Assembly (NCBI GenBank): GCA_951406725.2
Contig: OX597827.1
Span: 77,562,001 to 77,626,000, forward strand
Length of the DNA stretch: 64,000 nt
Direction of reading: 5' to 3'
From: Octopus vulgaris
Taxonomy: Eukaryota
In this document: piece after piece, positions 12,990 through 53,730 of the stretch
Layout: each line of letters begins with the position of its first letter
Position numbering within the stretch: the first letter of the stretch is position 1
Notes under the pieces: generated by a model
The model's database searches: none
What the model saw: the letters and a program-made list of their open reading frames with translations, nothing else
Told to the model about the DNA's origin: nothing
Translations under genes and position numbers: made by a program

Positions 12990-13930
12990 TTCCTAAAAGG
13001 CAAAAGTCAGACAATTGCAGCCGATGTTGTTCTCTTTGGGAAGATCAATTCTCAGTGGAATCCCTCAAGGAACTGTATTGGGACCCCTACTGTTTCTGGT
13101 GGTTCCCTCAGCCACTCACACCAGCCATATTGATGACACAAAATTATTATTGACCCTGATGACTGACACTGCCAAACACCCTGCAAAAGGGCTGATGAAA
13201 AATAACATGCAGTTGAATGCTGAGAATGTTCAAGGCCTCCACTGTTGGCTCACAAACAGACTAGAATCAGAATACAGAGGGCTAGAGGGTAGAGCATTCA
13301 CTGAGTCAGAGGTGGTGTGTGACCAGAGAATCCACATGAGAAAGCATGCAACATTCCATGAGCACATTATTGAGATGGCAGTATTTTTTACAGGTGAATA
13401 GCTGGATGGATTCCGAGATCATTCAGAATCAGAAAAAAAGGTACTACACTACCCTTAGGGAGAACTTTCATTCTCAGTTGTCTGATTTATGTCTCCCCAC
13501 TCATGTCGGCGGAACTTGAAGCAACCACTACACAAAGACTGATTCAGAGAAACATATGAGCTTCTCGGACAGGCTAAAGGAATTGACGCTCTACTTCCAA
13601 GGAGAAAGTGTGGAAGATATGCAGTGGTATGGAAGACCCTGGAAGATCTGGCTCCCAACTTTGGAATTTAAAGCTATTCCAATCATCAGACTGAATGGTA
13701 CTGCATAGAACCAAAGATCCCGACTTCTCCATCTAGAATATGGAGCCAGTATTGTAACAGCTTAGGTTACAAGGGTCCACAACTGTTCGACATTCTGCCA
13801 AACAGCCTCAAGAATTTGTGATGTGTAAATGCGGAGATCTTCAATGAGTATCTGGAAAAATTTTTATTTGTGATACCAGATGAACCTACATCATGACAGG
13901 AGGCACAAAGGAGTGTCTCCACCCAACTTC
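12990..13930 (+). mobile_element. Decayed CR1-like LINE ORF2 fragment
   Basis: SGIPQGTVLGPLLFL, DDTKL, NNMQLN; the 3' part resembles 16240-16735. Confidence 0.8.
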
Positions 13931-22554: not shown

Positions 22555-23000
22555 TTATTGTAAAAGAGTCTGGATGTAGCGGACAGCCTCTTGGCTCTCG
22601 CACTTTCTTTGTCCGACGCCGTATGTCGTGGTAGCCGGTTGGTTGGACCAACCAGAATTCCATGCTGTGGTAACGGGGAAGCTGCGCTTCCAGTAGTTGT
22701 TGTCAGGTCTCTGTGGAAGTTGATGGGGAGATGTGGAGTTCATTGATGCTGACGCTACGGTGGCTGGTTGCTGCCGAATGGAAGCATGTTGGGACATCAT
22801 CTGGTGAGAACAGGCTGCGGGGGACATTGATGACGACGACGATGACGATTTGCGGAGTCCTGCTTGATGTTGTGACATCATTTGACACGATGAAGATGGG
22901 GAAGACGATGGCGTGGACTGCTGTTGATGATGATGGTGATGCTGAGCCTGTTGTTGTTGTTGTTGCTGCTGCTGTTGCTGTGGTGGTGGTGGTGGTGGAG

Positions 23001-23036
<36 letters not shown>

Positions 23037-24612
23037 TCCTTGGAGGTGGCGGTGGTGGAGCTGCATGCTGTGATGATGAAGACTGCGTCATCTGATGAGA
23101 GCAAGAATTGGAAGCTAGGGTCCCCGGGGTAACGACAGTGGGAGACGGTGACGTAGCCGAGTGCTGTGGCTGCTGTTTCCTCATTGACGATGTATGATGG
23201 GTTGATGCTGTCCCAGATGAGGTCGATGCTGAACTAGAGCTGGCTGCCATCTGGTGGTGGGTCGTAGTACCACCAGCACCACCACCACTGGACACCAGGG
23301 CTGGCGTTTGCTGCTTGCTTCCATGGCCATCAGCGGTCATTTGAGAGTCCGAAGGGCTGCTGTTGGTGTGATGGTTTTGGTGCTGACTATGATTATGGAC
23401 ATGATGATGATGATGGTTATGGCCCATGGACTGAGAGAATTCTTCCCCGACGTGAATGCGACTGTGCTGCTTCAGGTGGGTCTTCTGGGAGAAGGTTTTC
23501 AGACAAATTGTACACTGGAAAGGTTTCTCGCCAGTGTGAGTCCGTCTGTGCTTGTTTAAATGGTCCTTCTGGGCAAAAGACTTATTGCAAATGGGACACT
23601 GGTGTGGCTTCTCGCCACTGTGTGTGTGCTTGTGGGTATTCAGGTGGGATTTTTGCGCAAAACTTTTCCCACAAAGGTTACACGTGAACGGTTTCTCCCC
23701 GGTGTGGGTTCTTTGGTGGTTCTCAAGACGGTCTCTCTGTGGGAAGACTTTGCTGCAAAACGGACAAGGGAAGTGTTTGCCAGTTTCAGGGGCAAGTTGG
23801 TGCCTGAGTAGGTAGGCCTTCAAAGTAAAACCCTTGCGACATACATCACATTTAAAGGGCTTATCTCGAGCTTCATTTCCTCTGTTAATCGGGAATGCTT
23901 TGGAGTTAAAGTGTCCGCTGTTCTGGAACGACACATTGCTTCCGTGAAAATGGCCGTGACTGTGGTTGTGATTGTGGTTGTGGCCATGGTTATGGGCGTG
24001 GTTGTGGGCGTGGCCGTGGTTGTGAGAGTGGGTGTGGCCATGATTATGACTGTGGTTGTGACTATGGGTGTGACCATGATTGTGGGAGTGGTTATGAAAC
24101 TGCTTTCGAGGAACCATCATTGCCATGTTGGTAGAATGGTTGTGGAGGTTCTTGTGTTTCACACGGTTGGCTGGTTTAATTCCCTGGTGAACCATTTTGT
24201 GTGTGTTCAGGTGAGACTTCTGTGAGAAGGACTTGGAGCAAATGTCACAGGTGAACGGCTTCTCACCTGTGTGGGTCCTCTCGTGTTTCTCTAACCTGTC
24301 TCGCTGCGGAAACACTTTGCTGCAGAAGTTACAATTGAAATGCTTGCCAGCTTCTGGGGCCATCTGGTGCCGCTGGAGGTAGGCTTTTAGTGTGAAACCT
24401 TTACGACAGATATCACATTTGAATGGCTTGTCCCGGGCTTCGTTACCTTTCGGTTTAAACATGAACGAGCCATTGTTGTTGTTGTGATGGTGATGGTGGT
24501 GGTGATGATGGTGGTGGTGGTGGCCATTCGGTGGTGAAAAAGACTGAGAGTGATTATGGCCCCCACCTCCACAATTCTCAAAGCAGTTATCATTGGACTG
24601 GACCGAATACAT
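22555..24612 (-). CDS. C2H2 zinc-finger protein, 685 aa, 8 fingers (3+5; two lack the last His), poly-His/HxH tracts, C-terminal Ser/Gln/Pro low-complexity region
   Basis: Long ATG-initiated ORF with repeated CxxC-x12-HxxxH motifs and TGEKP linkers; pyrimidine tract plus AG acceptor at about 24641-24680, 28 nt upstream of the ATG. Confidence 0.95.
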
Positions 24613-33914: not shown

Positions 33915-35085
33915 CATGTAAAAGGGAGCAGTTAGTAAAGGGACAGTTAACTGTGAGTTCAGTAATGAATTTAGAGTATAGGTAGGCATTCACCAGGGCT
34001 CAGTTCTCAGTCCTCTCCTATTCATCATAGTCCTCCAGACCAGAACAGAAGAATTTAAGACCAGCTGCCCCAGGGAACTATCATATGCTGATGATTTTGC
34101 TCTCATGGTAGAATCTGTAACAGTATTAGATAATAAATTCTGGGTGTGGAAGCAAAACCTGGAATCAAAAGGCCTTAAAGTTAACATAGCAAAGCCCAAA
34201 GATCTAGTAAGCAGGATTCTACCCACTTCAGGTAAATGGCCCTACTCAATATGTAGGAAGGGTGAAGGCAGGTCTTCCATTTGGTGTGCCCAGTGCAAGC
34301 TATAGAATCAAAAGAAGGTTAAGTAAGAAAGTAGTGTATGTGGAAGATTCACAGAAGCAGTGAACACTAAGGAGTCATGGCAAATAGATTTTCTTGAATG
34401 CCATGGAAGCTTCCTGGAGGTGGCAGATAGCTTTCTGTTACTTAAATGACCTAATTAGCAGTGGTGGAGGATGATCCAACAGGATAGTTGCAAGAGTAAG
34501 AACAGGATGGAGAAGGTTCAGAGAGTTATTACCTCTGTTCTCTTTCTCTGAATGAAAGACATTGTATTATGCTTGTATGGAATGGAAGCACTCCGTCAGT
34601 TACAACGACGAGGGTTCCGGTTGATCCGAATCAACGGAACAGCCTGCTCGTGAAATTAACGTGTAAGTGGCTGAGCACTCCACAGACACGTAGTTCTCGG
34701 GGATATTCAGCGTGACACAGAGAGTGACAAGGCCGGCCCTTTGAAATACAGGTACAACAGAAACAGGAAGTAAGAGTGAGAGAAAGTTGTGGTGAAAGAG
34801 TACAGCAGGGATCACCACCATCCCCTGCCGGAGCCTCGTGGAGCCTTAGGTGTTTTCGCTCAATAAACACTCACAATGCCTGGTCTGGGAATCGAAACCG
34901 CGAGTCCGCTGCCCTAACCACTGGGCCATTGCGCCTCCACTACGATGCTTGTATATGAAGAGCAATGCTACATATTAGAGAGGAATGAAACTAGTATGCT
35001 CTGTTTGATGTGCAATGTCAGTGTGCATTGATGCCAAAGCACTGATGTACTGACCAAGATCTTATGCATCAGAAGGAATCAAGGT
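33915..35085 (+). mobile_element. RTE LINE reverse transcriptase remnant interrupted by a SINE
   Basis: GIHQGSVLSPLLF, YADDFAL, GLKVNIAK and CRKG..C..C read in plus-strand frames. Confidence 0.85.
34588..34938 (-). mobile_element. Full-length SINE family D
   Basis: Reverse complement of 5194-5565; atgcttgtat repeated on both sides. Confidence 0.9.
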
Positions 35086-48951: not shown

Positions 48952-51291
48952 CTACAGCTGCCACAGGTATGTGCTCATTGGTGGAAACTCTTCAATTGTT
49001 TTATTGTTGGAATTAACAGACACTTTGTGAGGTTTGCTGCTCGGTTGGGGTCCGTTGTGAGTCTTCTTGTGTCTCTGCAGGGTATCCCCTCGTGTGAACT
49101 GTTTCGGGCACATATCACAATGGTAGGCTTTCTCTCCGCTGTGTGTAATCTTGTGCAATCGCAGGTATTGTCTTTGAGCAAAAGACTTGAAGCATATCTC
49201 ACACTGGTACGGTTTCTCACCAGTGTGGGTTCGACAATGGATCTTCAAAGAGTTTTTCTGTGCAAACTGCTTCAGGCAGAAGTCACATTGAAATGGCTTT
49301 TCCCCAGTGTGGGTCCGTTTATGTAATCTTAGATAGTGTTTGTGGGCAAAGTTCTTGAGGCAGACGTCACACTGGAATGGTTTTTCTCCTGTGTGGGTTC
49401 GCTTGTGTATCTGTAATGTGTTTCTCTGAGCAAACTGTTTAAAACAAACTTCACATTGGAACGGTTTCTCTCCCGTGTGAGACCTCTGATGGACATGAAG
49501 ATAATGTCTCTGCGCAAACATCTTTAAGCAAATATCGCATTGATACTGACGCTTCGGTGCATGAGTGCGACGGTGAACTCGCAACTTATCGCTCTGGGCG
49601 AACCTCTTGTCACAAATCTCACAATGGAACGGTTTTTCCCCCGTGTGAGTCCTCCGGTGAATTTGAAGGGTCGTTTTGCGAGCAAATTTCTGGATGCAAA
49701 AGTCACACTGGAATGGTTTCTCTCCCGTGTGGGTTCTTCGGTGAATGATTAAGTAATGTTTTTGAGTGAACTTCTTCAAACAAATGTCACAGTGCATCAG
49801 TTTTTCACCGGTGTGCAGTCGTCGATGGATCTGTAGGTAATACCTTTGTGCAAAATGCTTCAGACAAAATTCGCATTGGTGCCGTTTCTTCAAAATGTGT
49901 GTTTTCTGATGAATCTGAAGCTTTATTCGCTGTGAAAATCTCTCCTGACAGACTTCACACTGGAATGGCATCTCTCCAGTATGGGTGCGTCGATGGATCT
50001 GAAGCGTGTCTCTTCGAGCAAATTTTTGGATACAGAAATCACATTGGAATGGTTTCTCCCCAGTATGAGTCCTCTTATGAATTTCAAGATAATTCCTCGT
50101 ACCGAAATACTTCATGCATACATCGCATTGAAATAGTTTATCTGGTGTAAACTGCTTTTTCGCCATTTGAGAATTCTCTTGCATAGGAACTTGGTAGCTG
50201 TTTCCAAGAACTTTGGGGGATTGGACAAGACCCTCCATATGGTTTTTCTTATGTCTTTTCATAACATCTTTGCGAGAGAACTGTTTGTTGCAGATATCGC
50301 ATTGGAACGGTTTCTCTCCTGTGTGTTTCCTTCGGTGCATGTGCATCAAATATTCCTGAGCAAACTTCTTGCCACAGTAATCGCAGAAGAGCTGCCTCAA
50401 TACTTGTGGTTTGGGTTGGCTTGGCGACAATTTGTTCGGGCCATATTGTTTTTGAGACACATCACCATGGAATGATTTATCAATACTAGAAGTGGAGCTC
50501 TTTTGAGAAGAACTCTCCTTAGATGATTGTCCGCCCTCCAAGCTTGACTGCATTCTGTCAGTAGTTGGTAGGTAACATGGTTGAGAATACTGGCTGCTGT
50601 ACATATTGTTACCAGGAAACACTGTCTGACCAATATAGGGCAGTCGCTGGCTCTCTATAGTCGACTCATGAGAGAACTGGCTCCCAGACAGGTCGCTGTT
50701 GCTATTGTTGTCTGGTTTGTCAACTGGTGAGGCTATTCTCTCCTTCTCCAAGTTATGTCTGTGGGAAGAGATCTGTTTACTGGAGATGCTGTTGTGAATG
50801 TTTTTCTCTGGAACATGTGACATCCTTGGAGTCTCCTGACAACTTCCATGAGACATATGCTTGCCGGAGCTATGGGAAGACTTCTCAGCCACATGAGAGA
50901 TCCTGTGTGTGTCATGGGAGTACTGCTTCCCAGAGTCACTGCTGCTATTGTGGATAGACTTCTCACCGGGTTCTAACATTCTTTGAGAGCTGTGTGAATG
51001 AGAAGAACTATGTCGATGGTGAATGTGCTTCCCAGAACTGTTGCTATGGTGATGGCTGGATTTCTCAGCAATCGGCGTCATCCTTTGCTGTGAGTGAGAA
51101 CTCTGTGAGCTATGAATAGGAAATTGTTTGCCCCCTAACGGAGCCATCCTTTGAGTATCAAGAGCATGTTCCTGGCCGAAATGCTTGCCAGAAAAGTCGC
51201 TAAGGGTTGGCATTCTTGGTGTGGGAAGTCTGTGATGGAATGGCATGCCATACATTTCACCATAGATTGGAATCCCGGCAGACCTCTCCAT
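48952..51291 (-). CDS. C2H2 zinc-finger protein, about 779 aa, 15 fingers (2+13), Ser/His-rich repetitive N-terminus
   Basis: 15 canonical fingers, mostly TGEKP linkers. The ORF-track start at 51315 is TTG; the first in-frame ATG is at 51291 in good context (ATCATGG). Acceptor ttttcactgtttcAG at 51392-51393. Confidence 0.95.
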   Translation of the reverse strand: MERSAGIPIYGEMYGMPFHHRLPTPRMPTLSDFSGKHFGQEHALDTQRMAPLGGKQFPIHSSQSSHSQQRMTPIAEKSSHHHSNSSGKHIHHRHSSSHSHSSQRMLEPGEKSIHNSSSDSGKQYSHDTHRISHVAEKSSHSSGKHMSHGSCQETPRMSHVPEKNIHNSISSKQISSHRHNLEKERIASPVDKPDNNSNSDLSGSQFSHESTIESQRLPYIGQTVFPGNNMYSSQYSQPCYLPTTDRMQSSLEGGQSSKESSSQKSSTSSIDKSFHGDVSQKQYGPNKLSPSQPKPQVLRQLFCDYCGKKFAQEYLMHMHRRKHTGEKPFQCDICNKQFSRKDVMKRHKKNHMEGLVQSPKVLGNSYQVPMQENSQMAKKQFTPDKLFQCDVCMKYFGTRNYLEIHKRTHTGEKPFQCDFCIQKFARRDTLQIHRRTHTGEMPFQCEVCQERFSQRIKLQIHQKTHILKKRHQCEFCLKHFAQRYYLQIHRRLHTGEKLMHCDICLKKFTQKHYLIIHRRTHTGEKPFQCDFCIQKFARKTTLQIHRRTHTGEKPFHCEICDKRFAQSDKLRVHRRTHAPKRQYQCDICLKMFAQRHYLHVHQRSHTGEKPFQCEVCFKQFAQRNTLQIHKRTHTGEKPFQCDVCLKNFAHKHYLRLHKRTHTGEKPFQCDFCLKQFAQKNSLKIHCRTHTGEKPYQCEICFKSFAQRQYLRLHKITHSGEKAYHCDMCPKQFTRGDTLQRHKKTHNGPQPSSKPHKVSVNSNNKTIEEFPPMSTYLWQL

Positions 51292-51632
51292 GATGATAAT
51301 GAAAGCATGAAACAAGAACTAGTAGAGTCTTAACGAATGTGGCTCGGACCGACTGATTGTCTTCTCAACAAAACAGGTCACACAGTACACTCTGAAACAG
51401 TGAAAAGAAAACAAAAATAAATACTATAGATATATATATATATACATGTAAAGATGTGTATATTTAATATATAAGTGCAAAAATGGCTATCAAATACAGA
51501 AGTGGTTTCTTACACTGGATTATACACAGGATTCTTGCAGCAGAGGAACCAGAAAAACTATTCACATTTTAGAGGAGGGGAGTTGGAAAAGTGCTAGGGT
51601 GTATAGGTGTGTGAGGTGTGAGTGTGTGTGTT

Positions 51633-51861
51633 TTAACCCTTTTGTTACCAACCCGGCTGAAACTGGCTCTGGCTCTGTAGTACAAATGTCTTGTTTTCAT
51701 AAGTTTTAATTTAAAAGCTTCCACCAAACCTTAGTTACAATTTATGTTCTTAACACTAGCTTAATGATAACTAAGTTACTTTACTAAATTCTTTGTTACA
51801 TTGAAAGTAATTGAAAGAAACACAGAGCATCTCAAAATAAATATAGTAAAGAAAGGGTTAA
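51633..51861. mobile_element. piggyBac-type MITE in the ZNF 5' intron
   Basis: TTAA-ccctttt ... gaaaggg-TTAA; close match to 25810-26037. Confidence 0.9.
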
Positions 51862-51872
51862 GATAAACTGAC

Positions 51873-52101
51873 CTGTAGAAGAACTGTCTGGGTTGACATG
51901 CTCCAGAGGAGAAAAAATCTTTGAAAAGGTTTTCTCCCTCTCTCTCCGTCTCTTCTTTTCTCTTCCCAACACCAGCAGGGCACCAAGTAGTGGCGACAAT
52001 TTATCGAGATACAGTTGGAGGTTAACGAGGCGGCTGTCACAACGACGCTGTAGTCAAAGGTCTCAGTCAATGTGAAGAACTGCTGCTTCCTCTGGTAAAA
52101 A
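51873..52101 (-). other. Probable 5' UTR exon of the 15-finger ZNF gene
   Basis: Non-repetitive 229 nt block bounded on the minus strand by ttattttgtAG and CAG/GTCAGT, about 480 nt upstream of the coding-exon acceptor. Confidence 0.65.
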
Positions 52102-52569
52102 CCTACAAAATAACAGCAACAACATTTAAAGCAGGTGAAGTCAAAATAAGCATCGTAATAAGGATTTCTAAGAGAGGTCCAAGGTTTGAGATTTAAGAGG
52201 GAGATGTAGTCAGTTATATGAAGCTCTGTAATTAACAGGTTCTCTATCTTAATGAGCATGGAAAGATAAAGAGCTAAGAAGCACAATTAAGTACAGGGTG
52301 GCTTTGTTCGATGCTCTAACGACACTGCCAATCCATCACCCTATAATAACGATGATGATGATGATGATGATGACAATGATTACAACCATGATAATTAACA
52401 ACCAAATATCAAAACTTCTAATGTCCAGAAAGAGACCCTGTGAGACCTCGGACAGCAGGATGCTGTCCACTCTCACAGGATCTACCAGGGCAAACAAAAA
52501 TGAGCACTCTGAGAAGTAAAACGATGATGATGATAATGATAATCGTAATCATCATCATCATCATCAAGG

Positions 52570-53730
52570 ATTGAAAAAAAAACACCTGTGTACTGATAGA
52601 TATTGCAGTCCCTTCTGACCAAAATATTGTCCAGAACAAAGTGAAGAAATTGTCAAACTACAAAGAGCTGGAGATTGAAGTATTCAAGATGTGGGACACA
52701 AAGGTGAAAATAATACCAGTAATTATTGGAGCATTGGGTATGATAAAAAAGAAACAAAAACATAGAAGCTATATCTGGACCCTCAACACCACACACTGTC
52801 CAAAAAATAGCCCTGCTGGGAACAGCCCAGATCCTATGCAAAACACTAGCAATTCAATAATACAGCTCATAGAAAACAATCCATGAACACAAGACACATT
52901 CTATACAACAAATATCCAATAAAATAAACCACCACCAAAACATGGATTCCACTAGGCAGAGACCCAACAGAGCTCAACTCGAATTACACACACAACACAA
53001 ACACTGGTACAACAAAAGACTGCAACCAGAGCCCATAACAAAACAAACTGACGCAATACCGTACCAGAAAGAGTTTTCACTCCCCCAACAGCAAAAAGAA
53101 CACACAATGCTACACAGACCCCCAGCAACACAGGTGATGCAGTAGAAATTTGCTTGAACCAACCAAAGGTTGAATAGCTCTGATGCAGCACCAGGCAGTG
53201 GCTCTCAAGGCTTCTGATCTTAACTGATCGAAAGTGTTATCATGTACATTGTTTTGTCTTGGTATAAAAGATGGGTTACAGCAAATATTCTGCTCAATAC
53301 CACAGATTTGCTTGTCAGTTGTTTGACCATAACCAGTTGAGCATGTCCCTTAGTGGCTGACGATATGTGCATCTCTGATCACGAGCAGAAGTAGTGGGGG
53401 AGCATCATAGCCATGTGTTGAGAGGAACTCTTTGGGGTTTGGATAATTCGCCTCTGGAAACATAGGTGTTTTGTTCAACATCCTTAAACAACCCTCATTC
53501 AGGGACCTTTTGAATAGGATGGGCTACTCGACCAGAAGAAAATTCTAACTGGGCCCCACCTGCAAGGTCAAGCGCTGTTTATCTTGATATGCGATCACCA
53601 TGTCGTGCACATGTGGTTGTGACGCATGTGCCTGATGTACCCTTATCAGATGGGTAGTCATGATGGGTATACAGGGATTTGTATATTTTACCCCAGTGTC
53701 ACTTTGATGGCATGCACTGCTCTCTCACTC
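52570..53730 (+). mobile_element. 5'-truncated R4/Dong-clade non-LTR element (restriction-like endonuclease C-terminus and 3' UTR)
   Basis: LIDIAVPSDQN..KKLSNYKELEIEV.KMW..KIIPVIIGALG; ends in (AAT)n. Confidence 0.75.

What the first reader, a model, noticed from the sequence alone, without database searches (positions are those of the whole stretch)
50443..51201. Array of ligand-less fossil zinc fingers forming the N-terminus of the 15-finger protein
Seen: the apparently disordered N-terminus is 7-9 units of about 28 aa. S-DF-S-GKH-F-GQEHA-L-DT-Q-RMA-P-LGGKQ-F and S-DL-S-GSQ-F-SHEST-I-ES-Q-RLP-Y-IGQTV-F match the C-x2-C-x3-F-x5-L-x2-H-x3-H-TGEKP-F spacing exactly, and DKSFHGDVSQKQY mirrors EKPFHCDVCxKQF. 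Cys ligands are mostly replaced by Ser and the first His mostly by Gln, while the hydrophobic core and linker EK persist and the frame stays open. Established: cephalopod C2H2 genes are greatly expanded and lack KRAB. Inference: finger arrays were recycled into a Ser/His-rich effector or phospho-regulated domain, a possible route to effector domains in this family.
Basis: partly seen in the sequence, partly recalled or inferred. Interest (0 to 1): 0.8.

Follow-up and report, generated by a model that had tools for sequence, protein, structure and literature searches.

The report
Decayed zinc fingers kept by cephalopods
The front third of this octopus-type zinc-finger gene is built from worn-out copies of its family's own zinc fingers, and related octopus and cuttlefish genes keep a similar stretch, which likely serves as a flexible docking region for regulatory partners, a role that is untested.

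Summary
Window 48952-51291 (-) encodes a 779-aa protein with 15 intact C2H2 fingers. Spliced contigs from two studies cover its start. Residues 9-283 hold about ten units of 22-34 aa. Only one (aa 29-57) beats shuffles against a ligand-masked finger profile (p about 0.001), and its best matches among 2,053 fingers are this subfamily's own first finger. Six further units link to it by internal homology and shared Ser codons, so they were probably multiplied after decay. No Cys ligand survives, one unit keeps both His, and the region is predicted disordered.

The larger result lies outside the window: 14 related proteins, the named ones from octopods and a cuttlefish, most with related N-terminal units. 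A profile of these units retrieves zinc fingers in 18 of 19 PDB hits. The units form a conserved island (67% octopus versus cuttlefish in one 40-aa window, against 15-30% downstream). Substitutions at aa 195-270 are mostly synonymous.

Decayed fingers as such are common. A conserved N-terminal module made of them was not found in ten literature searches. Cofactor docking is inferred, not shown. A conserved C-terminal YLWQL-type motif is a rival effector.

The parts
51873..52102 (-). non-coding 5' exon
   Evidence: one contig each in runs X1 and X10 (different studies) joins 51873 to 51391; GT-AG ends; the unspliced run X17 reads through
51392..51872 (-). 481-nt GT-AG intron in the 5' UTR
48952..51291 (-). 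ORF without a stop, 779 aa (P0001); in-frame stop at 51319-51321 upstream of the ATG in the same exon; A at -3 and G at +4
51208..51267 (-). unit 0 (aa 9-28): shortened fossil finger, Gly and Tyr in the two Cys columns; start motif shared with paralogues
   Evidence: not significant alone
51121..51207 (-). unit 1 (aa 29-57): best-kept fossil finger, exact register, no ligand left, closest to the subfamily's first intact finger
   Evidence: p about 0.001 versus shuffles; top 6 of 2,053 fingers are first fingers of this subfamily
50704..51120 (-). units 2-6 (aa 58-196): Ser/His-rich copies of a decayed unit, S-x2-S-G-K ... R-[MI] ... E-K; unit 4 keeps H-x3-H
   Evidence: each matches the rest of the N-terminus at p<=0.009; alignment; 22 His and 35 Ser in aa 58-180
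50620..50703 (-). unit 7 (aa 197-224): fossil finger in exact register in this copy
   Evidence: matches unit 1 at p=0.002; a 2-residue longer form is seen in runs X17 and X20
50527..50619 (-). unit 8 (aa 225-255): family-conserved motif F-P-x-[DN]-x-Y-x3-[FY]-x-Q-x-C-Y-L, with Tyr in the second-Cys column (one extra residue in P0001)
   Evidence: Q-x-C-[YF]-[LFV] in 9 of 15 family N-termini and 0 of 91 others (pattern chosen after seeing the data); BLAST E about 1e-4 to 2e-5 to four relatives in a 13-sequence set
50443..50481 (-). unit 9 (aa 271-283): half finger (linker plus hairpin), 27 aa before finger 1
   Evidence: closer to intact fingers than to the other units at DNA level; best matches are the family's FHCD-type fingers
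50224..50391 (-). intact fingers 1-2 (aa 301-356)
   Evidence: pLDDT 70-90
49042..50133 (-). intact fingers 3-15 (aa 387-750)
48955..48993 (-). C-terminal motif P-[MVL]-x2-Y-[LMT]-W (ends YLWQL), a candidate second regulatory motif
   Evidence: 11 of 15 family proteins, 0 of 107 others (pattern chosen after seeing the data)

Best explanation
The first 300 residues of this 15-finger protein derive from decayed copies of its own family's C2H2 fingers that lost their Cys ligands, are predicted to be disordered, and likely act as a short-motif docking region for regulatory partners while the intact fingers likely bind DNA. Steps: (1) shown by sequence: finger ancestry of unit 1 and of the family's N-terminal units, and loss of every Cys ligand. 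(2) Inferred: an octopus-cuttlefish ancestor already had two or three such units at the N-terminus, with Tyr in the second-Cys column and a new Cys in Q-x-C-Y-L. (3) Inferred: in this gene's lineage a Ser-for-Cys unit was duplicated in frame several times, giving the Ser/His-rich units 2-7. (4) Shown: the region is in a spliced transcript, and substitutions at aa 195-270 are mostly synonymous. (5) Untested: the conserved aromatic units (0, 7-8) bind a cofactor or partner, while units 2-6 mainly add disordered length. Whether the effect is activation or repression cannot be told.
For: Ancestry: unit 1 p=0.001-0.0015 against masked profiles. Its top 6 matches of 2,053 fingers are the subfamily's first finger; 25 of 36 nt match finger 1 of the same gene, versus 14-22 for the other 14 fingers. 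A profile of ten N-terminal segments holding no intact finger retrieves zinc-finger proteins in 18 of 19 PDB hits, best E=7.7e-4, and aligns to a three-finger profile at probability 81.5, E=1.1e-5, with 0 of 15 column shuffles as high. 10 of 15 family N-termini beat shuffles at p<=0.013. Coleoid-family fingers are 9% of the pool but 13-19 of the top 20 matches for 7 of 11 fossil units. Amplification after decay: units 1, 3, 4 and 7 share AGC in the first and TCT in the second Cys column; units 0-5 and 7 score higher against each other than against intact fingers at DNA level. Disorder: pLDDT below 50 for nearly all of aa 1-292 while fingers 1-2 reach 70-90 (single sequence). Constraint: run X17 differs at 10 sites in 50444-51291, all synonymous; run X20 shows 11 synonymous and 10 replacement changes at aa 195-270, omega about 0.2; gap totals in the contigs over this region are 6, 6 and 3 nt. 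Conserved island: O. bimaculoides P0010 versus cuttlefish P0013 67% at aa 41-80, against 15-30% over aa 81-240; versus P0011 and P0015 55-62% over aa 1-80. The octopus-decapodiform split is put at about 275 Mya (PMC9068888, passage) or 220 Ma (PMC9795677, passage).
Against: No functional data at all. Residues 59-300 alone do not beat shuffles against the generic profile (p=0.52); the N-terminus alone finds nothing in Pfam, PDB or the 50% library. One of three low-complexity control regions gave p=0.022, so p-values near 0.02 are weak. Whole N-terminus profiles of two of three orthologue groups did not match fingers better than shuffles (5 of 15 and 7 of 15 shuffles as high), and alignment A2 was cut by eye. 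Selection is shown for aa 195-270 only: aa 1-160 differ at one synonymous site in X17 and X10, and only 21 of about 61 X20 differences in this region were listed (worst case omega 0.47 for the one contig). The differing contigs may come from a near-identical sister gene rather than an orthologue. Identity in the island (55-67%) is below that of the fingers (75-92%). Decayed fingers are common upstream of arrays in unrelated proteins (26 of 91). A C-terminal motif is as well conserved and could carry the regulatory role. Translation was not shown.
Confidence: 0.5

Rival explanations
1. Finger-derived but generic disordered spacer: the region is kept for length, solubility, condensate behaviour or DNA scanning, with no specific partner; residual similarity is slow decay under weak constraint.
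For: Unit lengths vary from 22 to 34 aa; a 2-residue length difference exists among close copies; unit number differs widely among paralogues; no fold is predicted; decayed fingers are common upstream of arrays (PMC2604467, figure legend passage).
Against: The finger-derived block is far better conserved than the equally disordered sequence next to it (55-67% versus 15-32% for most windows), and specific derived residues (Tyr, Q-x-C-Y-L) recur across several paralogue groups.
Confidence: 0.27
2. The units act mainly as a phospho-switch or degron that controls the level or timing of the protein.
For: 64 Ser in aa 1-300 and five S/T-P sites; N-terminal position; conserved Tyr in the family motif.
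Against: The linker Thr that is a mitotic phospho-site in canonical fingers (recalled) is absent from every unit; the best-conserved residues are aromatic rather than Ser; Ser enrichment follows directly from one-step TGY to TCY/AGY changes and repeat amplification.
Confidence: 0.12
3. The His-rich units still bind metal (a loose Zn site or buffer) or fold as non-canonical fingers on a partner.
For: 28 His in aa 1-300; unit 4 keeps H-x3-H and unit 5 the second His; several paralogues keep His in the second-His column.
Against: No Cys in any Cys column of P0001; the His-rich stretch was not seen in the closest paralogues found; register is not kept; no fold is predicted.
Confidence: 0.09
4. Chance resemblance in low-complexity Ser/His sequence.
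For: Most units are not significant alone; one control region reached p=0.022.
Against: Unit 1 picks out the subfamily's own first finger among 2,053; the family profile retrieves fingers from PDB; the reversed sequence scores like shuffles.
Confidence: 0.02

Closest known systems
Degraded C2H2 repeats in mammalian poly-ZF and KRAB-ZNF proteins (PMC2604467, passages; PMC2865497, passages)
   Same: Finger-length units that no longer match C-x2-C-x12-H-x3-H and lie in frame with intact fingers. My control found such units upstream of the first finger in 26 of 91 unrelated proteins.
   Different: In those controls 19 of 26 abut the array and 17 of 26 keep two or more ligands. Here the conserved units lie at the far N-terminus, well over 100 aa before the first intact finger in most family members, mostly keep no ligand, share derived residues across paralogues and are conserved between octopus and cuttlefish.
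N-terminal accessory domains of expanded ZNF families: KRAB, ZAD, SCAN, BTB, FiNZ (PMC10547256, PMC12774644, passages)
   Same: Lineage-restricted, N-terminal, more conserved than the neighbouring spacer, shared by a family of poly-finger genes.
   Different: No Pfam match to any of them. The module is in the same ORF stretch as the fingers in P0001, whereas FiNZ and KRAB are on a separate exon; it derives from fingers; no fold is predicted; no function is shown.
Isolated N-terminal C2H2 fingers reused for dimerization (Drosophila IMZF group, PMC12774644, passages)
   Same: A finger taken out of DNA binding and placed at the N-terminus.
   Different: Those keep zinc ligands and a solved fold; these have lost the Cys ligands.
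Coleoid-wide C2H2 expansion clusters (PMC12513265, parts 1-2 of 7 read plus term search)
   Same: Poly-finger genes shared by octopods and decapodiforms; the named relatives here come from Octopus bimaculoides, O. vulgaris, O. sinensis, Argonauta hians and Acanthosepion pharaonis.
   Different: That paper has 0 occurrences of 'effector', 'degenera', 'N-terminal' or 'motif' in its main text. I did not open its supplements or Dryad data, so cluster membership is untested.

Membership tests
Classical C2H2 zinc finger (N-terminal units) | two Cys ligands in C-x2-C | tested here: not met
   0 of 18 Cys-column positions hold Cys
Classical C2H2 zinc finger (N-terminal units) | two His ligands in H-x3-H | tested here: not met
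   both kept in 1 of 8 units, one kept in another
Classical C2H2 zinc finger (N-terminal units) | 28-aa register with Phe/Leu core | tested here: inconclusive
   exact in units 1 and 7; spacings of 22-34 aa elsewhere
Classical C2H2 zinc finger (N-terminal units) | zinc-dependent beta-beta-alpha fold | tested here: inconclusive
   no fold predicted, but from one sequence or a 10-row alignment; zinc binding needs an experiment
Sequence descended from C2H2 fingers | masked-profile or profile-database similarity above chance | tested here: met
   unit 1; family profile; units 2-8 only weakly (best two of 4 PDB hits are fingers, E=0.094 and 0.84) or by internal homology
Poly-C2H2 transcription factor (whole protein) | tandem canonical fingers with TGEKP-type linkers | tested here: met
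   15 fingers
Poly-C2H2 transcription factor (whole protein) | sequence-specific DNA binding | not testable with these tools
   inferred from the family
KRAB / SCAN / BTB / ZAD-ZNF | the Pfam accessory domain | tested here: not met
   none in P0001 or six relatives, including the cuttlefish protein whose source name is 'KRAB'
Lineage-specific N-terminal effector module (works like KRAB/FiNZ) | conserved N-terminal block shared by a ZNF subfamily | tested here: met
Lineage-specific N-terminal effector module (works like KRAB/FiNZ) | recruits a cofactor and changes transcription when tethered | not testable with these tools
   needs a reporter and pull-down

The most novel reading that the evidence does not exclude
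Coleoid cephalopods built a new accessory module for a clustered zinc-finger subfamily out of their own dead fingers: a Cys-to-Tyr fossil finger fixed before the octopus-cuttlefish split became a cofactor-binding motif that does for these genes what KRAB, ZAD or FiNZ do elsewhere, and single genes such as this one tune it by multiplying decayed units.
Probability: 0.3. Interest if true: 0.85.

Novelty: new variant of a known kind. Interest (0 to 1): 0.6.

Why it matters
Coleoids carry hundreds to thousands of C2H2 genes (PMC12513265, PMC9068888), and the papers I could see name no effector domain for them. This gives two short, testable candidates in one octopus-cuttlefish subfamily: the N-terminal fossil-finger motif and the C-terminal YLWQL-type motif. 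It would also be a traceable case of a folded DNA-binding repeat turning into a conserved disordered regulatory region, with the donor finger still present in the same gene. If the region is only a spacer, it remains a clear record of how disordered regions arise from domain decay.

Tried and rejected
No genome is held for this window, so paralogues and synteny could not be read directly. Searches with the N-terminus alone found nothing: Pfam, region search among proteins of 428-1364 aa, 50% representatives, PDB sequences, Atlas features. No full-length orthologue of P0001 was retrieved. The Atlas search with P0018 aa 1-170 gave top scores of 0.75-0.77, below the useful level. The family-profile search returned 10 proteins, none named from outside cephalopods, which is weak evidence of restriction and missed known members.

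Idea that unit 1 came from the neighbour gene's His-to-Pro fingers (shared M-A-P register): rejected as the main source, since that finger ranks 21st of 2,053, behind the subfamily's first finger. (A3 versus A2, probability 90) is discounted because both alignments share P0001 residues. The binomial p for one-step Cys codons (16 of 18 versus 28% background) is not used, because columns were hand-anchored and the units are not independent. Motif counts use patterns written after seeing the proteins. A homodimer prediction for the 85-aa N-terminus of P0011 gave no answer. AlphaFold of that segment gave pLDDT 55, pTM 0.10, so no fold search was run. The tree is the quick version only; it places P0001 outside the P0010/P0011/P0013/P0015 clade and leaves deeper nodes open. 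Two coleoid family members (P0095, P0108) were still in the 'generic' training set and were removed from then on. Three look-ups of earlier findings returned nothing.

Literature: ten searches showed no description of this module. The 2015 octopus genome paper is not held and no supplements were read, so a prior mention cannot be excluded.
Full report
The gene. The minus strand at 48952-51291 encodes a 779-aa protein (P0001) with 15 canonical C2H2 fingers, two at aa 301-356 and thirteen at aa 387-750. Contigs from runs X1 and X10, of different studies, join 51391 to 51873 across a 481-nt GT-AG intron, and in each a single contig runs from about 50790 through the ATG into the upstream exon; run X17 reads through unspliced. 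The runs are marked RNA by guess only, but the spliced joint shows a processed transcript. An in-frame stop lies 28-30 nt upstream of the ATG in the same exon, so this ATG is the first possible start. Translation was not shown.

Check of the observation. Residues 9-283 hold about ten units. The Arg that marks each unit recurs at 22-34 aa spacing (mean 27.5), and DNA repeats recur in frame. Against a profile of 1,756 fingers with the four ligand columns masked, aa 29-56 score 14.2 bits versus -2.6 +/- 3.3 for composition shuffles (p=0.0015); the reversed sequence is at chance. A gapped, cyclic version with all coleoid family proteins removed from training agrees (p=0.001), but aa 59-300 score like shuffles (p=0.52), and one of three control regions from the neighbouring gene reached p=0.022. 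With a profile of cephalopod fingers aa 57-300 give p=0.003. So one unit is a finger relic on its own evidence, and the others need indirect support. That support exists: units 1-7 each match the rest of the N-terminus at p<=0.009, units 0, 8 and 9 do not (boundaries set by hand), and a profile of units 2-8 has zinc fingers as its best two of four PDB hits, at weak E-values.

Donor and order of events. Among 2,053 fingers from all proteins fetched, the six best matches to unit 1 are the first intact finger of this subfamily. At DNA level 25 of 36 nt match finger 1 of the same gene, against 14-22 for the other fingers; finger 1 has TGC and TGT at its Cys codons where unit 1 has AGC and TCT. Over the full 84 nt finger 1 is not the best match (44, versus 46 for finger 3), so the signal is in the first half. 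Units 1, 3, 4 and 7 share the AGC/TCT pair, and most units resemble each other more than they resemble intact fingers. The simplest reading (inference) is decay of one unit followed by in-frame duplication, not 7-9 separate losses. Unit 9 is a half finger closer to intact fingers than to the other units, probably a separate event. No Cys column holds Cys; unit 4 keeps both His. AlphaFold from the single sequence gives pLDDT below 50 for nearly all of aa 1-292 and 70-90 for fingers 1-2.

The family. Searches returned 14 related representatives; the named ones are from O. bimaculoides, O. vulgaris, Argonauta hians and the cuttlefish Acanthosepion pharaonis, the rest are unnamed. Four (P0010, P0011, P0013, P0015) share P0001's finger order and about 50% identity, and their first 60-80 aa match both the start of P0001 and its units 7-8 (E 1e-6 to 2e-4 in a 13-sequence set). 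Ten of 15 family N-termini beat shuffles against the masked generic profile at p<=0.013. A profile of ten N-terminal segments, cut by eye and holding no intact finger, returned 19 PDB sequences at E<=10, 18 of them zinc-finger proteins (TFIIIA and Aart counted as such from recall), best E=7.7e-4, and matched a three-finger profile at probability 81.5. Profiles of whole N-termini were weaker: one of three groups beat all 15 shuffles, two did not. For 7 of 11 fossil units the top 20 matching fingers are mostly coleoid-family fingers, which are 9% of the pool. Shared derived features are Tyr in the second-Cys column (27 motif hits in 13 of 15 proteins, none in 91 other N-termini) and Q-x-C-[YF]-[LFV] (9 of 15 versus 0 of 91); both patterns were written after seeing the proteins.

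Constraint. P0010 (octopus) and P0013 (cuttlefish) are 67% identical at aa 41-80 and 15-30% over aa 81-240; the first 40 aa of P0013 do not align, possibly an annotation difference. P0010 versus P0011 and P0015 gives 55-62% over aa 1-80 and 17-42% beyond. The octopus-decapodiform split is dated at about 275 Mya (PMC9068888) or 220 Ma (PMC9795677; passages only). In laid contigs, X17 differs from the window at 10 sites in 50444-51291, all synonymous, where 21% of sites are synonymous; X10 differs at 4, all synonymous, three shared with X17; X20 shows 11 synonymous and 10 replacement changes at aa 195-270 (omega about 0.2, Fisher p=0.0015), from 21 listed of about 61 differences. Nine of the ten X17 changes fall in aa 196-257, so constraint on units 1-6 is barely tested. 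Contigs over 50444-50826 are deeper in all four runs and another contig shares 50249-50473 before diverging, so a near-identical sister gene may contribute these differences; they would then show constraint between copies.

How it likely works. The intact array likely binds DNA (family knowledge). The N-terminus cannot form Cys2His2 sites. Its conserved part is a short aromatic motif in disordered surroundings, the usual look of a protein-binding linear motif (established knowledge, inference here), so cofactor docking is the reading I favour (0.5), ahead of generic spacer (0.27), phospho-switch or degron (0.12), metal binding (0.09) and chance (0.02). Finger ancestry alone I put above 0.9. 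The C-terminal P-[MVL]-x2-Y-[LMT]-W motif is in 11 of 15 family proteins and 0 of 107 others and is an equally good effector candidate.

Comparison with what is known. Degraded fingers inside poly-finger proteins are documented (PMC2604467 and PMC2865497, passages) and appeared upstream of the first finger in 26 of 91 unrelated proteins, 19 of them abutting the array and 17 keeping two or more ligands. Lineage-specific N-terminal modules such as KRAB and FiNZ are also known (PMC10547256, passages). No such Pfam domain was found in P0001 or six relatives. A recent survey of cephalopod C2H2 genes (PMC12513265; parts 1-2 of 7 read, rest by term search) has no occurrence of 'effector', 'degenera', 'N-terminal' or 'motif'. 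Ten searches showed no description of this module; the 2015 octopus genome paper and all supplements were not seen. What appears new is the combination: ligand-free finger relics at the far N-terminus, shared by paralogues, kept between octopus and cuttlefish, and re-amplified in one gene. Verdict: new variant of a known kind, interest 0.6.

Noticed in passing
window 48955-48993 (-): C-terminal motif ending YLWQL, conserved in 11 of 15 family proteins and in none of 107 others; a candidate cofactor-binding motif that matches no motif I could name.
   Followed up: partly
window 22555-24612 (-): Second C2H2 gene (P0002, 685 aa) with 8 fingers in two blocks; the first three-finger block is internally duplicated, and fingers 1 and 4 keep both Cys and the first His but have Pro for the second His. 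An O. vulgaris protein (P0131) has the same kind of finger. It also has His-Asn/His-Ser repeats and Gln/Pro/Ser tracts.
   Followed up: partly
window 50249-50826: Laid contigs are deeper over 50444-50826 in all four runs, and a 1,034-nt contig in X17 matches only 50249-50473; joints from 50249 to 49731 appear in three runs. This suggests a near-identical sister gene sharing units 6-9 and fingers 1-2.
   Followed up: no
window 51631-51861 (intron): High-copy interspersed repeat inside the 5' UTR intron, with contig depth orders of magnitude above the gene in three runs.
   Followed up: no
window 51305-51307 (-): An out-of-frame ATG 16 nt upstream of the main ATG opens a short frame that overlaps the start of the coding region (read).
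   Followed up: no
protein P0013: A cuttlefish protein named 'KRAB' by its source has no KRAB match in Pfam; probably an automatic label.
   Followed up: yes
proteins P0008, P0012, P0018, P0095, P0108: Paralogues with 530-640-aa N-termini hold clearer fossil fingers, up to six motif hits in P0012; the first unit of P0018 still has one Cys ligand. Good material for staging the decay.
   Followed up: partly
window 52575-52886 (+): A 103-aa open stretch resembling the end of a non-LTR retrotransposon protein (recalled resemblance, not tested); other short reverse-transcriptase-like fragments lie near 12997-13401 and 33982-34305.
   Followed up: no
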